From contig NC_090378.1 in the NCBI RefSeq assembly GCF_036365525.1, positions 120,203,593 through 120,267,592 of the forward strand: a stretch of DNA of 64,000 nt, given 5' to 3'. Below are positions 1 through 22,300 of this stretch, piece by piece (within the stretch, counting starts at the first letter, position 1; every line of letters starts with the position of its first letter). The position numbers and the translations under genes were made by a program. This stretch comes from Heterodontus francisci. Taxonomy: Eukaryota. The notes beneath the pieces were generated by a model. It ran no database searches, had not been told where the DNA came from, and was given only the letters and a program-made list of their open reading frames with translations.

Positions 1-258
1 GTGGGACTGTGTGTCCAATATTATATATTATATATAACTGTGGGATGTGTCAGTGCAGGAGGCGTGACTGTGTGTCCATTATTATATATTATATATAACT
101 GTGGGATGTGTCAGTACAGGAGGTGGGACTGTGTGTCCATTATTATATATTATATATAACTGTGGGATGTGTCAGTACAGGAGGTGGGACTGTGTGTCCA
201 TTATTATATATTTCTATAACTGTGGGATGTGTCAGTACAGGAGGTGGGACTGTGTGTA
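1..258. repeat. 61-bp minisatellite (GTGGGACTGTGTGTCCATTATTATATATTATATATAACTGTGGGATGTGTCAGTACAGGAG), at least 4.2 copies, truncated by window edge
   Basis: Units start at 1, 62, 123, 184 and 244 (one 60-bp unit); near-identical; array ends ~4 bp from the RSS nonamer. Confidence 0.95.
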
Positions 259-262
259 TTGA

Positions 263-290
263 GGTTTTTGTACGGCTCTGTCTCACTGTG
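263..290 (-). other. Recombination signal sequence, 12-bp spacer (V-RSS)
   Basis: Minus strand reads CACAGTG (290-284) + AGACAGAGCCGT (12 bp, 283-272) + ACAAAAACC (271-263). Heptamer and nonamer are both perfect consensus and directly follow the V exon. Confidence 0.98.
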
Positions 291-592
291 TAGAGGGTAG
301 CTGCTATATTGCTGACAGTAATAATCTGCGACATCCTCATTCTGTACATTACTGATTGTCAGAGTGAATTTGGTGTTCTGTTGACTGCCGGTGAATCGTT
401 CGGATGTTCCTGTGTATCGATCCGTTGCCTCATTGATCAGGAGAGTGGGTTTCTGACCGTCTCGCTGCTGATACCAAGCTACATCATCGCTAACGGACTG
501 GCTGGCCGTACAGGTGATCGTTGCGGTCTGTCCCAGTGTCACTGACAGTGCCGGTGGAGACTGGGTCATGATGATGGTGTCTCCACTGATAC
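291..592 (-). CDS. IGKV: Immunoglobulin light-chain variable segment, kappa type (elasmobranch type III/NS4-like), V exon, germline unrearranged
   Basis: Acceptor ...TACCCCTCAG| (AG at 594-593), then (G)[100 protein letters not shown]. Shows both conserved Cys, WYQQ, DVADYYC and kappa-like MTQSP and CDR3 QQ..SYP; no stops. A 12-RSS is consistent with kappa. The ORF track start at 710 is intronic read-through. Confidence 0.93.
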
Positions 593-778
593 CTGAGGGG
601 TAATAGAGAAACAGAGTGAAGTAAGAACTGTCACAGAAAGACCCTGTAAAATGAGATATTATTTGAGACAGTGACCGTTCCTCTTGTTTCAGCATTTTCA
701 CTCCTATCACAAGTCAGTCGAATTGGACTGAAATAAACAGCAGGAAAATATTAAACGTGGAAGGAGAGAGATTTGTAC

Positions 779-827
779 CTGCGACGCAGAATGCCAGAGG
801 CCAGATCAGCTGGATGGGTGAAATCAT
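779..827 (-). CDS. IGKV: Leader (signal peptide) exon of the Ig kappa V gene: MISPIQLIWPLAFCVA(G)
   Basis: GGCACCATG Kozak context at 827. The 49-nt exon ends in a phase-1 donor CAG|GTACAA at 779/778. Intron 593-778 (186 bp) splices in frame to the V exon, the classic split Ig leader. Confidence 0.92.
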
Positions 828-885: not shown

Positions 886-897
886 GCTTTATAAAGC
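886..897 (-). promoter_or_regulatory. TATA box of the V promoter (palindromic GCTTTATAAAGC)
   Basis: TATAAA ~60-70 bp upstream of the leader ATG and ~40 bp downstream of the octamer-like site. Confidence 0.75.
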
Positions 898-933
898 TGC
901 AGCCTGTGAGAGTCTGACTGCCTGTTTCTCAGT

Positions 934-941
934 ATGTAAAT
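934..941 (-). promoter_or_regulatory. Octamer-like element ATTTACAT (7/8 match to the light-chain octamer ATTTGCAT)
   Basis: Plus strand ATGTAAAT at 934-941; light-chain orientation; ~107-114 bp upstream of the ATG, where the IgL octamer is expected. Confidence 0.7.
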
Positions 942-974
942 GGTATCACCCAGAGAAAGGCACGTCAGCAACTC

Positions 975-1214
975 TCACTTCCTCTTCTCTCTCCCTCTTC
1001 CCCCCTCTCTCACTCTACCTCTCCCCCCTCTCTTCCTCACTCTCCCTCTCCTCCTTCTCTTCCACTTCCTCTGTCTCCCTCTCTCACTATCCCTCTCCCT
1101 CACTCACTCTCTTTCTCTCCCCTTCTCTCTATCCTTGTCTCTGTTTTGCTCTTTTGTGCTCTTTCTTTGTCATCCTCTCTTTCTGCCTCTCTCTCTCTGT
1201 TACTCTGTCTCACT
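975..1214. repeat. CT-rich low-complexity polypyrimidine tract
   Basis: Almost entirely C/T on the plus strand; degenerate (CT)n. Confidence 0.9.
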
Positions 1215-4880: not shown

Positions 4881-4971
4881 TGTGGATTTCCGGTGGGGAC
4901 AGAATTGGACACAGTTGTGATGGCCCCTGCAGTCAAATATCCTGCTAACAGGGTCCAGGTTTACACATGTA

Positions 4972-5760
4972 GGCTGGGATTTAGTTGAGGTCCCGATGTC
5001 GGGATCCGTGACGGGGGATGGTGGCGGGGACGCCGGAAGATCATTCTGACAGCGGCCGGACACGGAGTCCGACGCCAGGAGTGTCGGACCCGATCTTCCT
5101 GGTGGTGACGTGGCTCCGGGGCGGTCCCTCCGCTGCTGGGTGACGGGATCCGACTTTACATATTTAAATTAAGTAAATGAATAAATTTAAATAAAATCAA
5201 CAGCAATCTTCCCGGCTGCCCGCGATCTTCCGAGCGGCGGCCGGCACTCACACCTTCACTTCCCCGTCCAGGGAAAACTAGCACCACCGAGGTGGGGATG
5301 GGGGGAGACTTAGGATCTTTAGTGCAGTGAGAGGGGGTTCAGGGTCCAATCAGCATTAATAGTGCAGGGGAGGGTGGGAAGGGGTGACCTCTGAACTTTG
5401 ATCAGTTTGGGGGGAAGGTCAAGTCTTGCAGGTAAGTGTTTTGTTGGGGGAGAGGAGGACAACCATTACATTTAATTGTTATTGGGGGGAAGGGGCGAGA
5501 GTTTATTTTGCAGTTCATTGGGTGGGGAGGGGTTAGGGCGTTAAAAATGTAAATGTAGCAGCAGGACTGGCTGTCCTTTCAAAATGGCACCAGCGCCTGT
5601 GTAAAGGCAGCTGATGCTGTTGCCAGCGTGGCAGAGCACCCCCTCTCCATGTGATTGAGGGGGCAGCACGACCATCGTTTTATGTTGGGCCACCGTGCGG
5701 TCGATCGTGGTAGCATGGCGGCACGGGGACCACATGTGTGACCACCATATTGTTCACCCA
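4972..5760 (+). mobile_element. MITE/non-autonomous DNA transposon, same family as 1215-1635; right end uncertain
   Basis: Begins GGCTGGGATTTA; colinear similarity to 1215-1600; no clear right TIR. Confidence 0.55.
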
Positions 5761-5974
5761 CAGAATGGGGAAGTGGGTGAGGTAGGAATGTGCTGTCGGG
5801 GCCCATGGAACTGTTACCCCAGCATGAAGTGTCCCTCAGGAGGGGAGAGGGAATGTTCCGAGTCCTGAGCTCCATTACCCACACCAGGCATTTTGTCTTC
5901 CAATGAATGAATGAGATGCCAATTTCGAGTCCGGGTTAGGGACAGTCTCGTACTGTGGGTCCAGGTCTACAAGA

Positions 5975-6102
5975 GGGAATTGGAGATAGACCTGAAAAGG
6001 AAAGATTTGCTGGGTTATGGGGCTGGAGAGGGGCAGTGGGAGTAATTGGGTAGCTCACAGGCACGATGGGCTGAATGGCCTCCTTCTGTGCTGTAAGATT
6101 CT
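5975..6102 (+). mobile_element. CR1-type LINE 3' end fragment
   Basis: GGGTTATGGGG...GGCACGATGGGCTGAATGGCCTCCTTCTGTGCTGTAAGATTCTA; the same terminal motif occurs at 9097-9123 and inverted at 7480-7515. Confidence 0.75.
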
Positions 6103-6340
6103 AGGTGGTGTGTGCGGTTCACAGTTTTCTCCCGTGTCATTAACAAACGTCCAGCTGCTCCGAGCTCCTTCTTTCACTTCCTCTGTTAGTTAAGTTTCAA
6201 TCTTCCGATCTGAGTCTTTGCAGTTATTTTTTACATTGGGGATTTCTGCTGTGGTCGGAGTCTCTAATAATAACCGTCCAATCAAAGAAAATAACAGCAG
6301 CTAAGACCAGTCAGCACTGAGGACCCAGTCTCACTGGGGA
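6103..6340. promoter_or_regulatory. Candidate lymphoid enhancer (EICE + E-box + two RUNX sites + CCAAT)
   Basis: TTTCACTTCCTC 6172-6183 (GAGGAAGTGAAA on minus), CAGCTG 6152-6157, TGCGGTT 6113-6119, TGTGGTC 6250-6256, CCAATCA from 6278. Lies in apparently non-repeat sequence between two LINE fragments. Motif evidence only. Confidence 0.4.
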
Positions 6341-6994
6341 ACACATTGGGAAGATCAAAGCCATTGTCTTCAGTTCCTGGTACAAACTCCATCCCTCTCC
6401 CTGAACACTGTCTGCTGCCGAACCAGACTCTTTACAACCTTAGCCTCATCTTTGACCCTGATCTGACCCCAAATCCTCCACATCTCAATGATTATCCACT
6501 TCCCCCTCTGTAACATTGCCCATCTCTGCCCCTCCCTCACTCCTTCCGCTACTGAAACTCTTCTTCATGTCTTTGTCACCTCTAACTTTACTATTCCAGT
6601 GTTCTCCTGACCAGACTGCCATCCTCCACTCTCTGTATTCTTCAGCTCATCCGAAGCTCTGCTCTCTATATCCTGTTCCAAACCAAGTCCTGTTCACCAT
6701 CACCCCCGTCCATGCTGACCTACATTGGGCTTCCATCCCCCAACACCATCACATTTCAATGTAAAATTCTACTCTCTGGATTGAAATCCCTCCGTAGTCT
6801 TGACCCACCCCCGTATCTAGAACCTCCTTTAACCTTGGTCTCCTTGAAACACTTCACCCTCCTTAAAACCCACATCTTTAACCAAGCATTTGGTCACCCC
6901 TCCTAATCTCTCTGTATCACTTGTGTCTGTTTTCCTGATGTCATGTGAGGTGGCGTGCGATGTTTCTCTACATTAAAGAGGTGACTTGTTGCTG
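6340..6994 (+). mobile_element. Degenerate L2-clade LINE 3' fragment
   Basis: AAGCCATTGTCTTC...CTGAAACTCTTCTTCATGTCTTTGTCACCTCTA...CTCCTTAAAACCCACATCTTTAACCAAGC (LLKTHIFNQAF), then a decayed tail; aligns with 8286-8700. Confidence 0.75.
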
Positions 6995-7285
6995 ATATAT
7001 ATCGATGATTTGGTCTTGGACAGAGGGAGCACGATCATTGGAATGTGCTGATTACACAGAAGGAGAGGTTTGACAAACAGGGAGGAGACCAGACAAAGAC
7101 TTGGGGAGAGGGATCAGGGAAGGGACAGATCGGAGACTGACACAATTCAATGTCGAGGGGTTTGAGATGATGGGTTTTGGAAGGAAAAGGAGTGAAAAGC
7201 TGATGAAGGAAGTGTAGAAGCAGAGAGATCTCGGGTTCAATTACATCATTCCTTGAAAGTGGAAATGCAGATCGATAAACCCTTG
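6995..7285 (+). mobile_element. Highly degenerate CR1 reverse-transcriptase fragment
   Basis: ATATATATCGATGATTTG (IYIDDL), GCTGATTACACA (decayed ADDT), CAATTCAATGTCGAG (QFNVE), TTTGGAAGGAAA (FGRK), CAGAGAGATCTCGGGTT (QRDLG), with frameshifts. Confidence 0.6.
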
Positions 7286-7479
7286 AATTAAAACAATCAA
7301 CAGCGTTTGGAAACTAAAAACTACAGATAGTAGAAATCTGAAATCAAAACCAAGAATTCACTAAACATTCAGCAGCCTCTCGGGGATTAAACTTCAGGTT
7401 TTTATTCAAATTGTATTCAATAAACATGTGAATCTGAGGAGAATACAGGACTATGGGGATAGAGCAGGGTAGTGGGATT

Positions 7480-8285
7480 GGGAATATAGGAACAGGAGGA
7501 GGCTGTTCAGCCCATCGAGCCTGTTCTATCCTTCAGTTTGATCAGCTGATCTGTATCTGATCTCCATCTCCCTGCCTTGGTTGCATAACCCACAATACCC
7601 CGACCCAACAAAATCTATCAAGCTCATTGTTAAATATTTAAATTGATCTTCAGCCTCAACAGCTTTATGAGGGAGAGAGTTCCCGATTTCCACTCACCTT
7701 TATGTGAAGAAATGCCTCCTGACATCACCCCGAGCTCTAATATTAAGATTATGTCCCCTTGTTCTCGACTCCCCCACCAGAGGAAACAGTTTCTCTCCAT
7801 CTCTCTGAATCATTTTAATCCTTTATTCATCTTAAATACCTCAATGAGATCACCCCTAAATTCTCTAAACTCAAGGGAATACAAGCCTAGTCTATACAGT
7901 CTGTCCTGATAATTTAACCCTTTCAGTCCCGGTATCATTCTGGTGAATCTGTGCTGCACCCCCTCCAAGGCCAATCTCTTCTTCCTGAGGTGCGGGGCCC
8001 AGAACTGAACACAGTTACTCCAGATGTAGTTAAACCAGAGCTTTATACAACTGGAGTAAAACCCCTTTGTATTCCAGTCCCCTTGATGGAAAGACCAACA
8101 TTCCATTAGCCTTATTCAATATGTTTTGTACCTGTCACTAGATTTTAATGCTTTCTGTACTTGGACCCCTAAATCTCTCTGTTCCTCCACAGTTCCCAGC
8201 TTCTCACCATTTAGAAATTACTTTGATTTATCTTCCTCAGGTCCAAACTGGATGACCTCACACTGTCCACATTGAACTCCATCTG
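7480..8285 (-). mobile_element. CR1 LINE, ORF2 C-terminus and 3' end (pseudogenised)
   Basis: Minus strand encodes WQMEFNV...CVQFWAPHLRK..LALEGVQHRFTRMIPGLKGLNYQDRLYRLGLYSLEFREFRGDLIEVFKM; 3' tail GGGCTGAACAGCCTCCTCCTGTTCCTATATTCC ends at ~7481. Confidence 0.9.
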
Positions 8286-8700
8286 CCATTGTCTTCGGTC
8301 CCCGTCACAAACTCCATTCCCGAGCCACTGATTCCATCCCTCTCCCAGGGACTGTCTGAGACTGAACCAGGCAGTTCACAGCCATGGTGTTGTATTTGAC
8401 CCTGAGATGTGTTACTGACCACATAAACCACATCATCATTAAAACCACCTATTTCCACCTCCGTAACCTCGCCCGAGTCCTTCCTGCCTCAGCTCATCTA
8501 CTGCTGAAACACTCATCCATGCCTTTGTTACCTCTAGACTTGACTATTCCAATGTTCTCCTGTTCGCATCACAGTTACCATCCTCTGTAAACTAGAGCTG
8601 ATCCAAAACTCTGCTGCCCATGTCTGAACCCAGACCATGTCACATTCCCCCATCACTGTGATCACTGACCGACATTGGCTCCTGTTCCAGCAACACCTCG
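8286..8700 (+). mobile_element. L2-clade LINE fragment nested between the two CR1 pieces
   Basis: Encodes KTTYFHLRNLAR and frameshifted ETLIHAFVTSRLDYSN and LELIQNSAA motifs typical of L2 ORF2. Confidence 0.85.
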
Positions 8701-8719
8701 ATGTTGCCTCATCTTGCCT

Positions 8720-9047
8720 CACATTATCCCTACTCTCTGTCTCCTACCTCCTAACCAATTCCTTACCCATGTCAAAAGGTTTCCTCACATTCCATATGCT
8801 TCGATTTTGCGAACAGTCTCTTGTGTGGAACCTTCTCAAATGCCTTCTGGAAATCCATATAAATAACATCCATAGACATTCCCTTATCTACCACATTAGT
8901 GACCTCTTCAAAAAATACAACTCGATTAGTTAAACATGTTTCACCCTTTTTAAATCCGTGCTGACTCTCTCTGATCAGTTTATATTTGTCAGTCATTCTG
9001 TCCCTAATAACAGATTCAAATAACTTCCCCACAACAGATATTAAACT
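8720..9047 (-). mobile_element. CR1 LINE reverse-transcriptase N-terminal part (pseudogenised)
   Basis: GKLFESVIRD...ESQHGFKKGETCLTN..FFEEVT.VVDKG..MDVIYMDFQKAFEKVPHKRL, followed in another frame by WVRNWLGGRRQRVGI. Confidence 0.9.
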
Positions 9048-9074
9048 GAGATGTTAGTCGTGAATTACTCGAGC

Positions 9075-9130
9075 AAACAGCTGGAAGAGAGACGAGGGGC
9101 TGAACGGCCTCCTCCTGTGCTGCAGAATTA
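9075..9130 (+). mobile_element. Short CR1 3' tail remnant
   Basis: GACGAGGGGCTGAACGGCCTCCTCCTGTGCTG. Confidence 0.6.
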
Positions 9131-9289
9131 TACTGCTTTTTGGCTGAAACATGTGGATTGGAACAGGAGGTGTGCTGGAGTTTAAACAATGAGTTAAATA
9201 TGGAGGTAGTGTCATTAGTGGGTAATGCACAGTCTACATTGTGTCCAGGACCCTCTCTAAAAGATGTCTTTCTCTTTTTCCTTTTTCAG

Positions 9290-9380
9290 GTCCAGGGCTG
9301 TAATTAAGGAGCTGAAAGAATATTTAGTGAAGAAGTTTCCGGACTGTGCGGTGTGTGTGAAGGTGTTCGGCAGTGACTGA
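9290..9380 (+). CDS. Candidate terminal coding exon of an unidentified gene or gene fragment (SRAVIKELKEYLVKKFPDCAVCVKVFGSD*)
   Basis: Strong acceptor TCTTTCTCTTTTTCCTTTTTCAG|G at 9289/9290, branch-like CTCTAA at 9255-9260, 29 protein-like codons (phase 2), TGA TGA stop, ATTAAA at 9623-9628. No upstream exon identified. Confidence 0.35.
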
Positions 9381-9659
9381 TGATTACAGCTCCTTGTTCA
9401 GGCAGCTCCGCCCTCACCACTGATCAAGCCATGTAACCTCCTGTCACACTGAGTGAAATTACAATCGATATCATAGTGTCAGTCACAGAAAACAACAGCA
9501 TCACAGTCTGAGTCACTGGGACAGACATCACTGCCTCACATCAAAGAACAGACCCCTTATCCCCTCTCACCATGTTCATAAACCATACAGTAGAGAAAAT
9601 ATACTGACAAACACCACCTTATATTAAACACTCACACCCATAGAACACCTTCAGAGGTA

Positions 9660-9782
9660 GAAGACAGGATAGAGATTGAGAGAGAAAGAGAAGGAGTGAG
9701 ATGGAGAGAGAGAAAGAGAGTGAGATGGAGAGAGAGAGAGAGGGAGTGAGAGGGAGTGAGATGGAGAGAGAGAGACAGAGAC
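9660..9782. repeat. GA-rich simple repeat with GAGTGAGATGGAGAGAGAGA subunits
   Basis: Purine tract with three copies of GAGTGAGATGGAGAGAGAGA. Confidence 0.9.
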
Positions 9783-10376: not shown

Positions 10377-13300
10377 CAGTCTCCAGACAGAGCGCAATTC
10401 ATCCAGTGCAGTCTCCAGCCGGGGCTCCATTCATCCAGTGCAGTCTCCAGCCAGGGCTCCATTCATCCAGTGCAGTCTCCAGCCAGAGCACAATTCATCC
10501 AGTGCAGTCTCCAGCCGGGGCTCCATTCATCCAGTGCAGTCTCCAGTCAGGGCTCCATTCATCCAGTGCCGTCTCCAGCCAGGGCTCCATTCATCCAGTG
10601 CAGTCTCCAGTCACGGCTCCATTCATCCAGTGCAGTCTCCAGTCAGGGCTCCGTTCATCCAGTGCCGTCTCCAGCCAGGGCTCCATTCATCCAGTGCAGT
10701 CTCCAGCCAGGGCTCCATTCATCCAGTGCCGTCTCCAGCCAGGGCTCCATTCATCCAGTTCAGTCTTCAGCCAGGGCTCCATTCATCCAGTGCAGTCTGC
10801 AGCCAGGGCTCCATTCATCCAGTGCAGTCTCCAGCCAGCCCTCATTCATCCAGTTCAGTCTTCAGCCAGGGCTCCATTCATCCAGTGAGTCTGCAGCCAG
10901 GGCTCCATTCATCCCGTGCAGTCTCCAGCCAGCCCGCCATTCATCCAGTGCAGTCTCCAGCCAGGGCTCCATTCATCCAGTTCAGTCTTCAGCCAGGGCT
11001 CAATTCATCCAGTGCAGTCTCCATCCGGGGCTCCATTCATCCAGTGCAGTCTCCAGCCAGGGCTCCATTCATCCAGTGCAGTCTGCAGCCAGAGCACAAT
11101 TCATCCAGTGCAGTCTCCAGCCGGGGCTCAATTCATCCAGTGCAGTCTCCAGTCAGGGCTCCGTTCATTCAGTGCCGTCTCCAGCCAGGGCTCCATTCAT
11201 CCAGTGCAGTCTCCAGTCAGGGCTCCATTCATCCAGTGCAATCTCCAGTCAGGGCTCCGTTCATCCAGTGCCGTCTCCAGCCAGGGGTCCATTCATCCAG
11301 TGCAGTCTCCAGTCAGGGCTCCGTTCATCCAGTGCCGTCTCCAGTCAGGGCTCCATTCATCCAGTTTTGTCTTCAGCCAGGGCTCCATTCATCCAGTGCA
11401 GTCTCCGGTCAAGGCTCCATTCATCCAGTGCAGTCTCTAGCCATGGCTCCATTCATCCAGTGCAGTCTCCAGTCAGGGCACCGTTCATCCAGTGCCGTCT
11501 CCAGTCAGGGCTCCATTCATCCAGTGCAGTCTTGAGCCAGGGCTCCATTCGTCCAGTGCAGTCTCCAGCCAGGGCTCCATTCATCCAGTGCAGTCTCCAG
11601 CCAGTGCTCCATTCATCCAGTGCCGTCTCCAGCCAAAGCTCCATTCATTCAGTGCAGTCTCTAGCCAGGGCTCCATTCATGCAGTGCAGTCTCCAGCCAG
11701 GGTTCAATTCATCCAGTGCAGTCTCCAGTCAGGGCTCCATTCATCCAGTGCCGTCTCCAGCCAGGTCTCCATTCATCCAGTGCCGTCTCCAGCCAGGGCT
11801 CCATTCATCCAGTGCCGTCTGCAGCCAGGGCTCCATTCATCCAGTGCAGGCTCCAGCCAGCCCTACACAAATCCAGTGCAGTCTCCAGCCAGGGCTCCGT
11901 TCATCCAGTGCCGTTTCCAGCCATGGCGCCATTCATCCAGTGTAGTCTTCAGCCAGGGCTCCATTCATCCAGTGCAGTCTCCAGCCAGGGCTCCATTCAT
12001 CCAGTTAAGTCTTCAGCCAGGGCTCCATTCATCCAGTGCGGTCTCAAGCCAGGGCTCCATTCATCCAGTTCAGTCTTCAGCCAGGGCTCCATTCATCCAG
12101 TGCCGTCTCAAGTCAGGGCTCCATTCATCCAGTTCAGTCTTCAGCGAGGGCTCCATTCATCCAGTGCAGTCTCAAGCCAGGGCTCCATTCATCCAGTGCA
12201 GTCTCCGGTCAAGGCTCCATTCATCCAGAGCAGTCTCCAGTCAGGGCAACATTCATCCAGTGCCGTCTCGTGTCAGGGCTCCATTCATCCACACTCAGTC
12301 TTTAGCCAGGGCTCGATTCATCCAGTGCCGTCTCCAGTCAGGGCTCCATTCATCCAGTGCAGTCTCCAGCCAAGGCTCCATTCATCCAGTGCAGTCTCCG
12401 GTCAAGGCTCCATTCATCCAGTGCAGTCTCCAGCCAGGGCTCCATTCATCCAGTGCAGTCTCCAGTCAGGGCTCCGTTCATGCAGTGCCGTCTCCAGTCA
12501 GGGCTCCATTCATCCAGTTCAGTCTCCAGCCAGGGCTCCATTCATCCAGTGCAGACTCCGGTCAAGGCTCCATTCATCCAGTGCAGTCTCCAGCCAGGGC
12601 ACCATTCATCCAGTGCAGTCTCCAGTCAGGGCTCCGTTCGTCCAGTGCTGTCTCCAGTGCGGGCTCCATTCATCCAGTTCAGTCTTCAGCCAGGGCTCGA
12701 TTCATCCAGTGACATCACAAGTCAGGGCTCCATTCATCCAGTGCAGTCTCTAGCCAGGGCTCCATTCATGCAGTGCAGTCTCCAGCCAGGGCTCAATTCA
12801 TCGAGTGCAGTCTCCAGTCAGGGCTCCATTCATCCAGTGCAGTCTCCAGCCAGGGCTCCATTCATCCAGTGCAGTCTCCAGTCAGGGCTCCGTTCATCCA
12901 GTGCCGTCTCCAGTCAGGGCTCCATACATCCAGTGCAGTCTCGAGCCAGGGCTCCATTCGTCCAGTGCAGTCTAAAGCCAGGGCTCCATTCATCCAGTGC
13001 AGTCTCCAGCCGGGGCTCCATTCATCCAGTGCCGTCTCCAGCCAAGGCTCCATTCATTCAGTGCAGTCTCTAGCCAGGGCTCCATTCATGCAGTGCAGTC
13101 TCCAGCCAGGGCTCAATTCATCCAGTGCAGTCTCCAGTCAGGGCTCCATTCATCCAGTGCAGACTCCAGCCAGGAATCCATTCATCCAGTGCAGTCTCCA
13201 GTCAGGGCTCCGTTCATCCAGTGCCGTCTTAAGCCAGGGCTCCATTCATCCAGTGCAGTCTCCAGCCAGGTCTCCATTCATCCAGTGCAGTCTCCAGCCA

Positions 13301-16300
13301 GGGCTCCATTCATCCAGTTCAGTCTTCAGCCAGGGCTCCATTCATACAGTGCAGTCTGCAGCCAGGGCTCCATTCATCCAGTGCAGTCTCCAGCCAGCCC
13401 TCCATTCATCCAGATCAGTCTTCAGCCAGGGCTCCATTCATCCAGTGCAGTCTGCAGCCAGGGCTCCATTCATCCAGTGCAGTCTCCAGCCAGCCCGCCA
13501 TTCATCCAGTGCAGTCTCCAGCCAGGACTCCATTCATCCAGTTCAGTCTTCAGCCAGGGCTCCATTCATCCAGTGCAGTCTCCAGCCGGGGCTCCATTCA
13601 TCCAGTGCAGTCTCCAGTCAGGGCTCCGTTCATTCAGTGCCGTCTCCAGCCAGGGCTCCATTCATCCAGTGCAGTCTCCAGTCAGGGCTCCATTCATCCA
13701 GTGCAATCTCCAGTCAGGGCTCCGTTCATCCAGTGCCGTCTCCAGCCAGGGCTCCATTCATCCACTGCAGTCTCCAGTCAGGGCTCCGTTCATCCAGTGC
13801 CGTCTCCAGTCAGGGCTCCATTCATCCAGTTTTGTCTTCAGCCAGGGCTTTTTCATCCAGTGCAGTCTCCGGTCAAGGCTCCATTCATCCAGTGCAGTCT
13901 CTAGCCATGGCTCCATTCATCCAGTGCAGTCTCCAGTCAGGGCTCCGTTCATCCAGTGCCGCCTCCAGTCAGGGCTCCATTCATCCAGTGCAGCCTCGAG
14001 CCAGGGCTCCATTCGTCCAGTGCAGTCTCCAGCCAGGGCTCCATTCATCCAGTGCAGTCTCCAGCCAGGGCTCCATTCATCCAGTGCCGTCTCCAGCCAA
14101 GGCTCCATTCATTCAGTGCAGTCTCTAGCCATGGTCCATTCATGCAGTGCAGGTCCAGCCAGGGCTCATTTCATCCAGTGCAGTCTCCAGTCAGGGCTCC
14201 ATTCATCCAGTGCAGTCTGCAGCCAGGTCTCCATTCATCCAGTGCCGTCTGCTGCCAGGGCTCCATTCATCCAGTGCAGTCTCCAGCCAGCCCTCCACTC
14301 ATCCAGTGCAGTCTCCAGCAACGGCTCCGTTCATCCAGTGCCGTTTCCAGCAATGGCTCCATTCATCCAGTGAAGTCTTCAGCCAGGACTCCATTCATCC
14401 AGTGCAGTCTCCAGTCAGGGCTCCGTTCATCCAGTGCCATCTCCAGTCCGGGCTCCATTCATCCAGTTCAGTCTCCAGCCAGGGCTCCATTCATCCAGTG
14501 CAGTCTCCGGTCAAGGCTCCATTCATCCAGTGCAGTCTCCAGCCAGGGCACCATTCATCCAGTGCAGTCTCCAGTCAGGGCTCCGTTCGTCCAGTGCCGT
14601 CTCCAGTCCGGGCTCCATTCATCCAGTTCAGTCTTCAGCCAGGGCTCGATTCATCCAGTGCCATCACAAGTCAGGGCTCCATTCATCCAGTGCATTCTCT
14701 AGCCAGGGCTCCATTCATGCAGTGCAGTCTCCAGCCAGGGCTCAATTCATCGAGTGCAGTCTCCAGTCAGGGCTCCATTCATCCAGTGCAGTCTCCAGCC
14801 AGGGCTCCATTCATCCAGTGCAGTCTCCAGTCAGGGCTCCGTTCATCCAGTGCCGTCTCCAGTCAGGGCTCCATTCATCCAATGCAGTCTCAAGCCAGGG
14901 CTCCATTCGTCCAGTGCAGTCTCCAGCCAGGGCTCCATTCATCCAGTGCAGTCTCCAGCCAGGGCTCCATTCATCCAGTGCCGTCTCCAGCCAAGGCTCC
15001 ATTCATTCAGTGCAGTATCTAGCCAGGGCTCCATTCATGCAGTGCAGTCTCCAGCCAGGGCTCAATTCATCCAGTGCAGTCTCCAGTCAGGGCTCCATTC
15101 ATCCAATGCAGTCTCCAGCCAGGTCTCCATTCATCGAGTGCCGTCTCCAGCCAGGGCTCCATTCATCCAGTGCTGTCTTCAGCCAGGGCTCCATTCATCC
15201 AGTGCCGTCTGCAGCCAGGGCTCCATTGATCCAGTGCAGTCTCCAGCCAGCCCTCCACTCATCCAGTGCCGTCTCCAGCCATGGCTCCATTCATCCAGTT
15301 AAGTCTTCAGCCAGGGCTCCATTCATCCAGTGCGGTCTCAAGACAGGGCTCCATTCATCCAGTTCAGTCTTCAGCCAGGGCTCGATTCATCCAGTGCCGT
15401 CTCACGTCAGGGCTCCATACATCCAGTGCAGTCTCCAGCCAGGGCAACATTCATCCAGTGCCGTCTCGTGTCAGGGCTCCATTCATCCACTTCAGTCTTC
15501 AGCCAGGGCTCCATTCATCCAGTGCAGTCTCCAGCCAAGGCTCCATTCATCCAGTGCAGTCTCCGGTCAAGACTCCATTCATCCAGTGCAGTCTCCAGCC
15601 AGGGCTCCATTCATCCAGTGCAGTCTCCAGTCAGGGCTCCGTTCATCCAGTGCCGTCTCCAGTCAGGGCTCCATTCATCCAGTTCAGTCTCCAGCCAGGG
15701 CTCCATTCATCCAGTGCAGTCTCCGGTCAAGGCTCCATTCATCCAGTGCAGTCTCCAGCCAGGGCACCATTCATCCAGGGCAGTCTCCAGTCAGGGCTCC
15801 GTTCGTCCAGTGCCGTCTCCAGTGCGGCCTCCATTCATCCAGTTCAGTCTTCAGCCAGGGCTCGATTCATCCAGTGCCATCACAAGTCAGGGCTCCATTC
15901 ATCCAGTGCAGTCTCTAGCCAGGGCTCCATTCATGCAGTGCAGTATGCAGCCAGGGCTCAATTCCTCGAGTGCAGTCTCCAGTCAGGGCTCCATTGATCC
16001 AGTGCAGTCTCCAGCCAGGGCTCCATTCATCCAGTGCCGTCTTCAGCCAGGGCTCCATTCATCCAGTGACGTCTGCAGCCAGGGCTCCATTCATCCAGTG
16101 CAGTCTCCAGCCAGCCCTCCATTCATCCAGTGAAGTCTCCAGCCAGGGCTCCGTCTATCCAGTGCCGTCTCCAGCCATGGCTCCATTTATCCAGTGCAGT
16201 CTTCAGCCAGGGCGCCATTCATCCAGTGCGGTCTCCAGCCAGGGCTCCATTCATCCAGTTCAGTCTTCAGCCAGGGCTCCATTCATCCAGTGCAGTCTCC

Positions 16301-19300
16301 AGCCTGGGCTCCATTCATCCAGTTCAGTCTTCAGCCAGGGCTAGATTCATCCAGTGCCGTCTCCAGTCAGGGCTCCATTCATCCAGTTCAGTCTTCAGCG
16401 AGGCCTCCATTCATCCAGTGCATTCTCCGGTCAAGGCTCCATTCATCCAGTGCAGTCTCCAGTCAGGGCTCCGTTCATCCAGTGCCATCTCGTGTCAGGG
16501 CTACATTCATCCAGTTCACTCTTCAGCCAGGGCTTGATTAATCCAGTGCCTTCCCCAGTCAGGGCTCCATTCATCCAGTGCAGTCTCTAGCCATGGCTCC
16601 ATTCATCCAGTGCAGTCTCCAGTCAGGGCTCCGTTCATCCAGTGCCGTCTCCAGTCAGGGCTCCATTCATCCAGTGCTGTTTAGAGCCAGGGCTCCATTC
16701 ATCCAGTGCAGTCTCCAGCCAGCCCTCCATTCATCCAGTGCAGTCTCCAGCCAGGGCTCCGTCTCTCCAGTGCCATCTCCAGCCATGGCTCCATTCATCC
16801 AGTGCAGTCTTCAGCCAGGGCGCCATTCATCCAGTGCAGTATCCAGCCAGGGCTCCATTCATCCAGTTCAGTCTTCAGCCAGGTCTCCATTCATCCAGTG
16901 CAGTCTCCAGCCAGGGCTCCATTCATCCAGTTCAGTCTTCAGCCAGGGCTCCATTCATCCAGTGCCGTCTCCAGTCAGGTCTCCATTCATCCAGTTCAGT
17001 CTTCAGCGAGGGCTCCATTCATCCAGTGCAGTCTCCAGCCAGCCCTCCATTCATCCAGTGAAGTCTTCAGCCAGGGCTCCATTCATCCAGTACAGTCTCC
17101 AGCCAGCCCTCCATTCATCCAGTGAAGTCTCCAGCCAGGGCTCCGTCTATCCAGTGCCGTCTCCAGCCATGGCTCCATTTATCCAGTGCAGTCTTCAGCC
17201 AGGGCGCCATTCATCCAGTGCGGTCTCCAGCCAGGGCTCCATTCATCCAGTTCAGTCTTCAGCCAGGGCTCCATTCATCCAGTGCAGTCTCCAGCCTGGG
17301 CTCCATTCATCCAGTTCAGTCTTCAGCCAGGGCTCGATTCATCCAGTGCCATCTCCAGTCAGGGCTCCATTCATCCAGTTCAGTCTTCAGCGAGGCCTCC
17401 ATTCATCCAGTGCATTCTCCAGCCAGGGCTCCATTCATCCAGTGCAGTCTCCGGTCAAGGCTCCATTCATCCAGTGCAGTCTCCAGTCAGGGCTCCGTTC
17501 ATCCAGTGCCATCTCGTGTCAGGGCTACATTCATCCAGTTCACTCTTCAGCCAGGGCTCGATTCATCCAGTGCCTTCTCCAGTCAGGGCTCCATTCATCC
17601 AGTGCAGTCTCTAGCCATGGCTCCATTCATCTAGTGCAGTCTCCAGTCAGGGCCCCGTTCATCCAGTGCCGTCTCCAGTCAGGGCTCCATTCATCCAGTG
17701 CTGTTTAGAGCCAGGACTCCATTCATCCAGTGCAGTCTCTAGCCAGGGCACCATTCATCCAGTGCCGTCTTCAGCCAGGGCTCCATTCATCCAGTGCCGT
17801 CTGCAGCCAGGGCTCCATTCATCCACTGCAGTCTCCAGCCAGCCCTCCATTCATCCAGTGAAGTCTTCAGCCAGGGCTCCATTCATCCAGTACAGTCTCC
17901 AGCCAGCCCTCCATTCATCCAGTGAAGTCTCCAGCCAGGGCTCCGTCTATCCAGTGCCGTCTCCAGCCATGGCTCCATTTATCCAGTGCAGTCTTCAGCC
18001 AGGGCGCCATTCATCCAGTGCGGTCTCCAGCCAGGGCTCCATTCATCCAGTTCAGTCTTCAGCCAGGGCTCCATTCATCCAGTGCAGTCTCCAGCCTGGG
18101 CTCCATTCATCCAGTTCAGTCTTCAGCCAGGGCTCGATTCATCCAGTGCCATCTCCAGTCAGGGCTCCATTCATCCAGTTCAGTCTTCAGCGAGGCCTCC
18201 ATTCATCCAGTGCATTCTCCAGCCAGGGCTCCATTCATCCAGTGCAGTCTCCGGTCAAGGCTCCATTCATCCAGTGCAGTCTCCAGTCAGGGCTCCGTTC
18301 ATCCAGTGCCATCTCGTGTCAGGGCTACATTCATCCAGTTCACTCTTCAGCCAGGGCTCGATTCATCCAGTGCCTTCTCCAGTCAGGGCTCCATTCATCC
18401 AGTGCAGTCTCTAGCCATGGCTCCATTCATCTAGTGCAGTCTCCAGTCAGGGCCCCGTTCATCCAGTGCCGTCTCCAGTCAGGGCTCCATTCATCCAGTG
18501 CTGTTTAGAGCCAGGACTCCATTCATCCAGTGCAGTCTCTAGCCAGGGCACCATTCATCCAGTGCCGTCTTCAGCCAGGGCTCCATTCATCCAGTGCCGT
18601 CTGCAGCCAGGGCTCCATTCATCCAGTGCAGTCTCCAGCCAGCCCTCCATTCATCCAGTGCAGTCTCCAGCCAGGGCTCCGTCTATCCAGTGCCGTCTCC
18701 AGCCATGGCTCCATTCATCCAGTGCAGTCTTCAGCCAGGGCGCCATTCATCCAGTGCAGTATCCAGCCAGGGCTCCATTCATCCAGTTCAGTCTTCAGCC
18801 AGGTCTCCATTCATCCAGTGCAGTCTCCAGCCAGGGCTCCATTCATCCAGTTCAGTCTTCAGCCAGTGCTCCATTCATCCTGTGCCGTCTACAGTCAGGG
18901 CTCCATTCATCCAGTTCAGTCTTCAGCGAGAGCTCCATTCATCCAGTGCAGTCTCCAGCCAGGGCTCCATTCATCCAGTGCAGTCTCCTGTCAAGGCTCC
19001 ATTCATCCAGTGCAATCTCCAGTCAGGACTCCGTTCATCCAGTGCCGTCTCGTGTCAGGGCTCCATTCATCCAGTTCAGTCTTCAGCCAGGGCTCGATTC
19101 ATCCAGTGCCATCTCCAGTCAGGGCTCCATTCATCCAGTTCAGTCTTCAGCCAGGGCTCCATTCATCCAGTGCCGTCTCCAGCCAAGGCTCCATTCATTC
19201 AGTGCAGTCTCTAGCCAGGGCTCCATTCATCCAGTGCAGTCTCCAGCCAGGGCTCCATTCATCCATTGCAGTCTCCAGTCAGGGCTCCATTCATCCGGTG

Positions 19301-22300
19301 CAGTCTCCAGCCAGGGCTCCATTTATCCAGTGCAGTCTCCAGCCAGAGCTCCATTCATCCGGTGCAGTCTCCAGCCAGGGCTCCATTCATCCAGTGCCAT
19401 CTCCAGCCAAGGCTCCATTCATCCAATGAAGTCTCTAGCCAGGGCTCCATTCATCCAGTGCAGTCTCCAGCCAGGGCTGCATTCATCCAGTGCAGTCTCC
19501 AGCCAGGGCTGCATTCATCCAGTGCAGTCTCCGGTCAAGGCTCCATTCATCCAGTGCCCTCTCCAGTCAGGGCAACATTCATCCAGTGCCGTCTCGTGTC
19601 AGGGCTCCATTCATCCACTTCAGTCTTCAGCCAGTGCTCGATTCATCCAGTGCCGTCTCCAGTCAGGGCTCCATTCATCCAGTGCAGTCTCCAGCCAAGG
19701 CTCCATTCATCCAGTGCAGTCTCCGGTCAAGGCTCCATTCATCCAGTGCAGTCTCCAGCCAGGGCTCCATTCATCCAGTGCAGTCTCCAGTCAGGGCTCT
19801 GTTCATCCAGTGCCGTCTCCAGTCAGGGCTTCATTCATCCAGTTCAGTCTCCAGCCAGGGCTCCATTCATCCAGTGCAGTCTCCGGTCAAGGCTCCATTC
19901 ATCCAGTGCAGTCTCCAGCCAGGGCACCATTCATCCAGGGCAGTCTCCAGTCAGGGCTCCGTTCGTCCAGTGCCGTCTCCAGTGCGGGCTCCATTCATCC
20001 AGTTCAGTCTTCAGCCAGGGCTCGATTCATCCAGTGCCGTCACAAGTCAGGGCTCCATTCATCCAGTGCAGTCTCTAGCCAGGGCTCCATTCATGCAGTG
20101 CAGTACCCAGCCTGGGCTCAATTCATCGAGTGCAGTCTCCAGTCAGGGCTCCATTCATCCAGTGCCGTCTTCAGCCAGGGCTCCATTCATCCAGTGACGT
20201 CTGCAGCCAGGGCTCCATTCATCCAGTGCAGTCTCCAGCCAGCCTTCCATTCATCCAGTGAAGTCTCCAGCCAGGGCTCCGTCTATCCAGTGCCGTCTCC
20301 AGCCATGGCTCCATTTATCCAGTGCAGTCTTCAGCCAGGGTGCCATTCATCCAGTGCGGTCTCCAGCCAGTGCTCCATTCATCCAGTTCAGTCTTCAGCC
20401 AGGGCTCCATTCATCCAGTGCAGTCTCCAGCCTGGGCTCCATTCATCCAGTTCAGTCTTCAGCCAGGGCTCCATTCATCCAGTTCAGTCTTCAGCGAGGC
20501 CTCCAGTCATCCAGTGCATTCTCCAGCCAGGGCTCCATTCATCCAGTGCAGTCTCCGGTCAAGGCTCCATTCATCCAGTGCAGTCTCCAGTCAGGGCTCC
20601 ATCCATCCAGTGCCATCTCGTGTCAGGGGTACATTCATCCAGTTCACTCTTCAGCCAGGGCTCGATTCATCCAGTGCCTTCTCCAGTCAGGGCTCCATTC
20701 ATCCAGTGCAGTCTCTAGCCATGGCTCCATTCATCCAGTGCAGTCTCCAGTCAGGGCTCTGTTCATCCAGTGCCGTCTCCAGTCAGGGCTTCATTCATCC
20801 AGTTCAGTCTCCAGCCAGGGCTCCATTCATCCAGTGCAGTCTCCGGTCAAGGCTCCATTCATCCAGTGCAGTCTCCAGCCAGGGCTCCATTCATCCAGGG
20901 CAGTCTCCAGTCAGGGCTCCGTTTGTCCAGTGCCGTCTCCAGTGCGGGCTCCATTCATCCAGTTCAGTCTTCAGCCAGGGCTCGATTCATCCAGTGCCGT
21001 CACAAGTCAGGGCTCCATTCATCCAGTGCAGTCTCTAGCCAGGGCTCCATTCATGCAGTGCAGTACCCAGCCAGGGCTCAATTCATCGAGTGCAGTCTCC
21101 AGTCAGGGCTCCATTCATCCAGTGCAGTCTCCAGCCAGGGCTCCATTCATCCAGTGCCGTCTTCAGCCAGGGCTCCATTCATCCAGTGACGTCTGCAGCC
21201 AGGGCTCCATTCATCCAGTGCAGTCTCCAGCCAGCCTTCCATTCATCCAGTGAAGTCTCCAGCCAGGGCTCCGTCTATCCAGTGCCGTCTCCAGCCATGG
21301 CTCCATTTATCCAGTGCAGTCTTCAGCCAGGGCGCCATTCATCCAGTGCGGTCTCCAGCCAGGGCTCCATTCATCCAGTTCAGTCTTCAGCCAGGGCTCC
21401 ATTGATCCAGTGCAGTCTCCAGCCTGGGCTCCATTCATCCAGTTCAGTCTTCAGCCAGGGCTCCATTCATCCAGTTCAGTCTTCAGCGAGGCCTCCAGTC
21501 ATCCAGTGCATTCTCCAGCCAGGGCTCCATTCATCCAGTGCAGTCTCCGGTCAAGGCTCCATTCATCCAGTGCAGTCTCCAGCCAGGGCTCCATTCATCC
21601 AGTGCAGTCTCCAGTCAGGGCTCTGTTCATCCAGTGCCGTCTCCAGTCAGGGCTTCATTCATCCAGTTCAGTCTCCAGCCAGGGCTCCATTCATCCAGTG
21701 CAGTCTCCGGTCAAGGCTCCATTCATCCAGTGCAGTCTCCAGCCAGGGCACCATTCATCCAGGGCAGTCTCCAGTCAGGGCTCCGTTCGTCCAGTGCCGT
21801 CTCCAGTGCGGGCTCCATTCATCCAGTTCAGTCTTCAGCCAGGGCTCGATTCATCCAGTGCCGTCACAAGTCAGGGCTCCATTCATCCAGTGCAGTCTCT
21901 AGCCAGGGCTCCATTCATGCAGTGCAGTACCCAGCCAGGGCTCAATTCATCGAGTGCAGTCTCCAGTCAGGGCTCCATTCATCCAGTGCCGTCTTCAGCC
22001 AGGGCTCCATTCATCCAGTGACGTCTGCAGCCAGGGCTCCATTCATCCAGTGCAGTCTCCAGCCAGCCTTCCATTCATCCAGTGAAGTCTCCAGCCAGGG
22101 CTCCGTCTATCCAGTGCCGTCTCCAGCCATGGCTCCATTTATCCAGTGCAGTCTTCAGCCAGGGTGCCATTCATCCAGTGCGGTCTCCAGCCAGTGCTCC
22201 ATTCATCCAGTTCAGTCTTCAGCCAGGGCTCCATTCATCCAGTGCAGTCTCCAGCCTGGGCTCCATTCATCCAGTTCAGTCTTCAGCCAGGGCTCCATTC

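What the first reader, a model, noticed from the sequence alone, without database searches (positions are those of the whole stretch)
6103..6340. Candidate B-cell enhancer: consensus PU.1/IRF composite (EICE) with E-box and two RUNX sites in a unique island
Seen: GAGGAAGTGAAAG (minus, 6183-6171), CAGCTG 14 bp away, a second IRF-type half-site TGAAACT (minus, 6199-6193), RUNX sites at 6113 and 6250, AP-1-like TGAGTCT at 6211 and Maf-like TGCTGACT (minus, ~6317-6310). All lie within ~240 bp flanked by LINE debris. Known: GGAAnnGAAA sites bound by PU.1/Spi-B with IRF4/8, together with E2A sites, are core to mammalian kappa 3' and lambda enhancers. Inference: an enhancer for this kappa cluster lying unusually 5' of V (~5.3 kb nominal), or a promoter/enhancer for the nearby orphan exon.
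Basis: partly seen in the sequence, partly recalled or inferred. Interest (0 to 1): 0.7.

Follow-up and report, generated by a model that had tools for sequence, protein, structure and literature searches.

The report
Upstream switch in shark kappa clusters
A 240-base non-coding stretch sits once upstream of each of this shark's 28 antibody kappa light-chain gene clusters and is also present in the DNA of two other organisms; it carries the binding words of known B-cell enhancers, so it is likely an on-switch that would let each cluster be activated on its own, but its activity is untested.

Summary
The motifs are real, but the island is not unique. It has 31 copies in G000. Of these, 28 lie one per kappa V-J-C cluster, with the PU.1-IRF site 1.8-6.9 kb upstream of the V start codon; 3 copies have no V nearby. 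The PU.1-IRF site, E-box, one RUNX site and a MEF2 consensus site are intact in 28 of 28 V-linked copies; the IRF half and MEF2 site are broken in the 3 related V-less copies. The core (6114-6302) also occurs in contigs of 2 of 3 other organisms laid (87%; 90-95%). In organism B, differences avoid the motifs (0 of 32 motif versus 14 of 91 other positions, p=0.011). The AP-1-like site is a private 2-bp deletion, and the Maf-like site is not kept in the other organisms. No copy lies in the J-C intron or 20 kb 3' of C in 4 clusters. Against: paralogue comparison alone shows no clean constraint, the homologues are not shown to be next to V, and no activity data exist. Verdict: likely a per-cluster B-cell enhancer 5' of V (0.68), a new positional variant of the known PU.1-IRF light-chain enhancers.

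The parts
6103..6340 (.). Cluster-specific non-coding element (candidate enhancer); cross-species core about 6114-6302
   Evidence: 31 copies in G000; kept in 27 of 27 other C8 clusters while both flanks are indels; core laid by contigs of organisms B and C
6171..6183 (-). PU.1/Spi-B-IRF composite site GAGGAAGTGAAAG
   Evidence: 10-bp core intact in 28 of 28 V-linked copies, IRF half broken in 3 of 3 V-less copies; no difference in organism B; not fully checkable in organism C
6152..6157 (.). E-box CAGCTG, 14 bp from the IRF half
   Evidence: 31 of 31 copies; intact in organisms B and C although C differs at 6151 and 6158-6160
6113..6118 (+). RUNX-type site TGCGGT
   Evidence: 27 of 28 V-linked, 2 of 3 V-less; in B and C the match begins at its second base and the first base reads C
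6193..6199 (-). Second IRF-type half-site TGAAACT
   Evidence: 27 of 28 V-linked, 1 of 3 V-less; no difference in B
6211..6217 (+). AP-1-like word: not a conserved part, made by a 2-bp deletion private to this copy
   Evidence: 30 of 31 copies read TGACAGTCT; 3 differences here in B
6238..6247 (+). NF-kB-like site GGGGATTTCT (one mismatch to a recalled consensus)
   Evidence: 25 of 28 V-linked unchanged, 3 positions changed in 3 of 3 V-less; one change within the consensus in B
6250..6255 (+). RUNX-type site TGTGGT
   Evidence: 31 of 31; no difference in B
6264..6273 (.).
   Evidence: 28 of 28 V-linked, broken in 3 of 3 V-less; cross-species state not checkable
6309..6316 (-). Maf-like half-site TGCTGACT, outside the cross-species core
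   Evidence: 31 of 31 in G000; loose ends show it missing in B and changed in C
887..984 (-). Kappa V promoter, the likely target: TATA-like 895-887, octamer variant ATTTACAT 941-934, TGCTGACGTG 970-961, Ets box GAGGAAGTGAGAG 984-972
   Evidence: ATTTACAT in 28 of 28 and the exact Ets word in 26 of 28 clusters; 9 of 115 columns vary
263..827 (-). Kappa V gene: leader 827-779, V exon 592-291, 12-bp-spacer RSS 290-263
   Evidence: nearest named proteins are shark kappa light chains, horn shark 86-91%
9290..9667 (+). Orphan exon pointing away from V, 28 copies on C8; upstream exon unknown
   Evidence: RNA-guess contigs begin at the acceptor

Best explanation
It is a conserved non-coding element carried once upstream of every kappa V gene, and it likely works as that cluster's own B-cell enhancer. 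Shown: position, copy number, motif content and selective retention of the motifs. Inferred from tetrapod light-chain enhancers: PU.1 or Spi-B binds the Ets box and recruits IRF4/IRF8 to the adjacent half-site; E2A, RUNX and MEF2 bind nearby; the complex contacts the V promoter 1.8-6.9 kb away, whose octamer is non-consensus; this opens V for V-J joining and then sustains transcription. In a one-V-one-J cluster a 5' element survives V-J deletion and stays near the promoter whatever the V-J gap (7.5-80 kb in the 4 clusters measured), so it need not lie 3' of J as in translocon loci.
For: 28 islands, 28 V and 28 kappa C on C8; each island pairs with a different V in one orientation. The block is kept in 27 of 27 other clusters while the flanks are in 13 and 16 of 27. 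Contigs of organisms B and C cover the core and go unlike at about the same edges; in B, 0 of 32 motif versus 14 of 91 other positions differ (one-sided p=0.011; 0.022 after dropping 2 sites where B equals the window); in C, 6 differences flank an intact E-box. IRF half, MEF2 and kB-like sites are broken in the V-less copies. No shared PU.1-IRF word and no island homologue were found in 16 loci around J and C of 4 clusters. The kappa promoter has ATTTACAT where 6 of 6 non-kappa light-chain V genes found have ATTTGCAT. The same motif set is needed in tetrapod lambda enhancers (PMC3972084, PMC10602925; passages).
Against: No chromatin or reporter data. Paralogue constraint is confounded: the island varies less than its V-side flank (23 of 238 vs 69 of 343 columns, p=0.0007) but not less than its far-side repeat flank (17 of 238 vs 14 of 339 and 22 of 448 in 17 copies). 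Motif columns are not significantly less variable among paralogues (2 of 45 vs 21 of 193, p=0.27). Several other upstream blocks are also near-universal. The footprint test falls to p=0.25 if the AP-1-like position is counted. B rests on one contig; only 14 of 25 differences in B and 8 of 20 in C are listed; how distant B and C are, and whether their copies lie beside V, is unknown. This window's own cluster has a J heptamer reading CAT instead of CAC yet keeps the element intact.
Confidence: 0.68

Rival explanations
1. It mainly targets somatic hypermutation to the cluster (a DIVAC-type element) rather than driving transcription or rearrangement; the two roles can coexist.
For: E-box, NF-kB, MEF2 and PU.1-IRF4 motifs are what DIVAC activity needs, and DIVACs work upstream or downstream (PMC3972084, passages); three are present as consensus matches and one with a mismatch.
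Against: Sequence cannot separate the two roles; the known DIVACs in that paper overlap transcriptional enhancers. No other PU.1-IRF element was found to supply transcriptional activation in 4 clusters.
Confidence: 0.09
2. It is a neutral passenger of the duplicated cluster unit; the motif cluster is chance and the homologues reflect slow shark sequence evolution.
For: Paralogue tests are confounded or non-significant; other upstream blocks are also near-universal; the loose site is common (26 in 400 kb); the relatedness of B and C is unknown.
Against: Differences in B avoid the motifs named in advance (p=0.011-0.022) and the match ends at the island's edges in both B and C; all four motif types together occur in 0 of 7,840 background windows (post hoc set).
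Confidence: 0.09
3. It is the promoter or enhancer of the divergent transcript that includes the orphan exon at 9290, not of V.
For: The exon has 28 copies, all on C8 among the clusters, is covered by RNA-guess contigs from its acceptor in two organisms, and the island has a CCAATCAG box on the same strand in 25 of 31 copies.
Against: One cluster has its island 1.8 kb from V but the nearest unpaired exon copy about 106 kb away, beyond C; the 3 V-less copies have no exon copy on their contig; the motif set is that of Ig enhancers.
Confidence: 0.07
4. It is a functional element of another sign or lineage, such as an IRF8/Spi-C/E-protein silencer that keeps clusters off, or a myeloid PU.1-IRF8 enhancer acting on something else.
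For: The same composite word is read by IRF8 and in myeloid cells (established knowledge, recalled); conservation shows function, not sign.
Against: Strict one-per-cluster linkage to kappa V and decay in V-less copies point to V; the E-box and MEF2 companions match activating Ig enhancers.
Confidence: 0.07

Closest known systems
Ig lambda enhancers of chicken, mouse (E-lambda-3-1) and human
   Same: PU.1-IRF4 composite site with E-box, MEF2 and an NF-kB(-like) site in about 200 bp (motif list from PMC3972084 and PMC10602925, passages)
   Different: Those lie 3' of C; this lies 5' of V, one copy per cluster. MEF2 and kB appear in swapped order, the kB site has a mismatch, two RUNX sites are added, and no activity is shown. 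Sequence homology was not tested.
Mammalian Ig kappa 3' enhancer
   Same: E-box, NF-kB and PU.1-IRF4 sites (figure legend S5 of PMC3972084); serves the kappa isotype
   Different: A single enhancer 3' of C serving many V genes; here 28 copies upstream of V and no copy 3' of C in 4 clusters
PU.1-bound, enhancer-marked chromatin near mouse V-kappa genes (PMC6146092, passages); the V-region enhancer E88 is recalled and comes from no call
   Same: PU.1 and enhancer marks beside V genes predict rearrangement, so regulation from the V side has precedent
   Different: Those are accessory to J-C and 3' enhancers in a translocon; here the V-side element is a discrete conserved module and the only composite site found per cluster

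Membership tests
PU.1-IRF type Ig light-chain enhancer | Ets-IRF composite site GGAAnnGAAA | tested here: met
   6181-6172; 28 of 28 V-linked copies; intact in organism B
PU.1-IRF type Ig light-chain enhancer | Companion E-box, MEF2 and NF-kB motifs | tested here: met
   E-box and MEF2 consensus met; kB site has one mismatch; MEF2 and kB consensus recalled
PU.1-IRF type Ig light-chain enhancer | Motifs conserved between species above the spacer sequence | tested here: met
   Organism B 0 of 32 vs 14 of 91, p=0.011; one contig; C only partly checkable
PU.1-IRF type Ig light-chain enhancer | Linked in cis to the light-chain gene | tested here: met
   28 of 28 in G000; linkage in B and C not testable
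Kappa 3' / lambda enhancers proper (orthologue) | Position 3' of the C exon | tested here: not met
   Lies 5' of V; no copy in the J-C intron or 20 kb 3' of C in 4 of 28 clusters read, and none elsewhere genome-wide
Kappa 3' / lambda enhancers proper (orthologue) | Sequence homology or synteny with tetrapod enhancers | not testable with these tools
   No tetrapod genomic DNA is served
PU.1-IRF type Ig light-chain enhancer | B-cell-specific open chromatin, factor binding, distance- and orientation-independent activation | not testable with these tools
   Needs ATAC, ChIP and reporter assays
DIVAC (hypermutation-targeting element) | Raises AID mutation of a linked transcription unit | not testable with these tools
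   Needs the DT40 assay (PMC3972084)
Dispersed repeat (LINE/SINE) | Many copies scattered over the genome | tested here: not met
   31 of 31 candidates, on 2 contigs, against 945 candidates for the adjacent flank; the search skips very common words

The most novel reading that the evidence does not exclude
Every shark kappa cluster carries its own 5' PU.1-IRF/E2A/MEF2 enhancer, shared across shark lineages, that makes up for a degenerate promoter octamer and is the limiting, probabilistic switch by which a B cell opens one cluster at a time. It would be the first defined Ig enhancer of cartilaginous fish and an ancestral arrangement, from before translocon loci forced light-chain enhancers 3' of J.
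Probability: 0.2. Interest if true: 0.8.

Novelty: new variant of a known kind. Interest (0 to 1): 0.55.

Why it matters
How a shark B cell expresses one of dozens of independent Ig clusters is open. PMC2435157 (passages) proposes that promoter-enhancer complexes form rarely because factors are limiting, and the passages seen name no shark enhancer. This element gives a 190-bp candidate with natural broken variants (the V-less copies) and a range of promoter distances (1.8-6.9 kb) that can be compared with cluster usage. It would also date the PU.1-IRF/E-box/MEF2 light-chain enhancer code to the base of jawed vertebrates and show that a 3' position is not intrinsic to it.

Tried and rejected
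Paralogue variability as proof of constraint: rejected because the far-side repeat flank is equally conserved. AP-1 and Maf sites as core parts: rejected. A second copy 3' of C or in the J-C intron, as noted for another shark (e1-9569506): not found in 16 loci from 4 clusters; the one GGAAGTGAAA there is in a single cluster and the same context recurs in an unrelated locus. Homologues at other Ig loci: none in 20 loci (blastn word 7, best 17-19 nt); IgH V-upstream regions were barely sampled. No RNA holder is on record. RNA-guess run X6 covers the island only in part at depth up to 28, with no joint or exon-like loose end; this is not counted as evidence. The orphan exon's peptide gave only a sub-threshold Pfam hint (MTPAP-like_central, E 0.084) and no longer homologue; its upstream exon was not found. 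Literature: 7 searches aimed at shark or fish Ig regulation listed no paper describing a shark Ig enhancer; two searches served the comparison. PMC2192082 (only 9.8 kb of text held) and PMC5192425 had no hits for the terms; two further papers were not held; subscription journals and supplements were not seen, so 'not in print' is weak.

Full report
Setting. The window holds a kappa V gene on the minus strand (leader 827-779, V exon 592-291, 12-spacer RSS at 290), about 10 kb of mixed upstream DNA, and two satellite arrays from 10.4 kb to the end. The nearest named proteins are shark kappa light chains. J lies at C8:120123455 and C at C8:120115374-120115697, so the V-J gap is about 80 kb; about 46 of the roughly 52 kb read in it are a 61-bp satellite. 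The labels CR1 and L2 for the flanking repeats are recalled and come from no call; that the V-side flank is repetitive is shown.

Observation. All listed words are present at the stated places, the Maf-like word one base off. The strict composite site is uncommon: 4 of 100 window shuffles, and AGGAAGTGAAA occurs 0 times in 400 kb of 40 other Ig-region loci. The loose form is common: 61 of 100 shuffles, 26 times in 400 kb. Loose site + E-box + two RUNX sites fall together in 8 of 7,840 overlapping background windows.

Copy number and linkage. The island has 31 matches among 31 candidates in G000: 28 on C8 between 115.7 and 124.6 Mb and 3 on C1183. C8 also has 28 V and 28 kappa C exons at 90% identity or more (150 of 567 candidates scored). 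Each island pairs with a different V, always upstream and in the same relative orientation, with the composite site 1,772-6,880 bp from the start codon. The block 5756-6361 is in 27 of 27 other clusters, whereas 4965-5755 is in 13 and 6362-7150 in 16; some other upstream blocks are also in 25-27. The C1183 copies have no V in the 8, 28 and 28 kb read on their V side, and no kappa V or C was found on that contig.

Motifs across the 31 copies. In V-linked copies the composite core is intact in 28 of 28, the E-box in 28, RUNX 6250 in 28, RUNX 6113 in 27 and the second IRF half in 27. A MEF2 consensus site at 6264-6273 is intact in 28, and a kB-like site at 6238-6247 is unchanged in 25 (both consensus words recalled and added after the fact). 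In the 3 V-less copies, which form one lineage, the IRF half, MEF2 and kB-like sites are all broken, while the E-box and RUNX 6250 are intact. The AP-1-like word is made by a 2-bp deletion found only in this copy.

Results against constraint from paralogues. The island varies less than the V-side flank (23 of 238 vs 69 of 343 columns, p=0.0007). In the 17 copies that share the far-side repeat insertion, that repeat is at least as conserved (14 of 339 and 22 of 448 vs 17 of 238), and the same holds in the basal copies, so a homogenisation boundary near 6100 explains the contrast equally well. Motif versus non-motif columns (p=0.27) and V-linked versus V-less copies (p=1.0 and 0.066) are not significant.

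Cross-species test. The island of a compact paralogue (L039:3122-3412) was laid on one RNA-guess run and on DNA-guess contigs of three other organisms. Organism B has one contig matching window 6114-6300 without gaps at 87% (25 differences in 189). Organism C has four contigs at 90-95% with depths of 101-700, which would fit many copies but is not a copy number. Organism E gave none. Both matches begin at 6114 and end at 6300-6302. B's loose letters are unlike the V-side repeat and show the Maf-like site missing before similarity resumes (compared by eye with the flank printed). The tool lists differences only away from piece ends (14 of 25 for B, 8 of 20 for C). In the zone where B's differences are listed, 0 of 32 positions of the E-box, composite site, IRF half and RUNX 6250 differ against 14 of 91 others (one-sided p=0.011; 0.022 dropping 2 sites where B equals the window; 0.25 if the AP-1-like position is counted as motif). 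In C six differences surround an intact E-box; its Ets half lies too near a contig end to check. B and C hold only 0.08 and 0.06 of the words of 5700-9700 against 0.64 for the own organism, and they lack the flanks that all 31 G000 copies share, so I infer that they split before these paralogues radiated. Their identity and linkage to V are unknown.

Rest of the cluster. In 16 loci covering J, the J-C intron and 20 kb 3' of C of 4 clusters there is no island homologue and no composite site shared between clusters. The kappa promoter carries ATTTACAT in 28 of 28 clusters, at the place where 6 of 6 non-kappa light-chain V genes found in 20 other loci have the consensus ATTTGCAT, and it carries its own Ets box with an imperfect IRF half. 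RNA-guess runs show V joined to J and a spliced leader, so these clusters rearrange and appear to be expressed.

Orphan exon. An exon at 9290-9667 points away from V, has 28 copies, all on C8, and is covered from its acceptor by RNA-guess contigs of this organism and in part by one of organism F (11 differences in 345). Its first exon is unknown. One cluster has its island 1.8 kb from V and the nearest unpaired exon copy about 106 kb away beyond C, which argues against the island being that exon's promoter.

Mechanism and comparison. In tetrapod lambda enhancers the E-box, NF-kB, MEF2 and PU.1-IRF4 motifs are conserved and needed for hypermutation targeting (PMC3972084, passages). In the mouse enhancer PU.1 gives IRF4 a platform, followed by E2A and p300 recruitment and V and J germline transcription (PMC10602925, passages). 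The island has this vocabulary, so I infer the same working mode, aimed at the adjacent V promoter. It fails the positional feature of those enhancers (3' of C), so I do not file it as their orthologue. The 5' position makes sense in a one-V-one-J cluster: it is never deleted by joining and does not depend on the V-J gap (inference). Nurse shark kappa genes have a V-J gap of about 500 bp and expanded independently of the horned shark's (PMC2193156, passages). V-side PU.1 and enhancer marks have precedent in mouse (PMC6146092, passages). PMC4279169, PMC9936319 and PMC13320880 (passages) gave nothing on shark enhancers.

Earlier notes of this scan (unchecked AI notes, not evidence) describe upstream PU.1-IRF modules at kappa clusters of other sharks; the place and sequence look-ups were empty. 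Verdict: a real, cluster-linked element with a cross-species motif footprint; likely a B-cell enhancer (0.68); a new variant of a known kind; interest 0.55 until activity is shown.

Noticed in passing
window 9290-9667 (+): Orphan exon in 28 copies among the kappa clusters, apparently spliced and transcribed away from V, also seen in organism F; its 29-residue frame is identical in 22 of 28 copies and has only a sub-threshold nucleotidyltransferase-like Pfam hint. Upstream exon unknown.
   Followed up: partly
window 1-257 and G000:C8:120123455-120203882: The V-J interval is about 80 kb and mostly a 61-bp satellite; 7.5, 9.6 and 56 kb in three other clusters, against about 500 bp reported for nurse shark NS4. 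May affect cluster usage.
   Followed up: partly
L070, J segment at G000:C8:120123455: This cluster's J heptamer reads CAT instead of the CAC seen in 3 of 3 other clusters read, so this copy may rearrange poorly.
   Followed up: partly
window 934-984 (-): The kappa promoter has a fixed non-consensus octamer (28 of 28) with an Ets box and a Maf/CRE-like word, while the non-kappa light-chain V genes examined have the consensus octamer.
   Followed up: partly
G000:C1183:1540358, 2902154, 2977306: Three V-less copies of the upstream cluster block on a separate contig, with several motifs broken: natural negative controls.
   Followed up: yes
G000:C8:115.7-124.8 Mb: The 28 clusters form two blocks of opposite orientation that switch near 120.8 Mb, with several near-identical pairs across the two blocks, suggesting a large inverted duplication or gene conversion.
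   Followed up: no
window 10377-24993 and 25634-64000: Two very long satellite arrays (32-bp and 36-bp units) start 4 kb beyond the island.
   Followed up: no
L039:807-1212 (window about 870-1200): One RNA-guess contig of depth 87 covers the region just upstream of the V promoter without differences; it could be upstream transcription from a paralogue, strand unknown.
   Followed up: no
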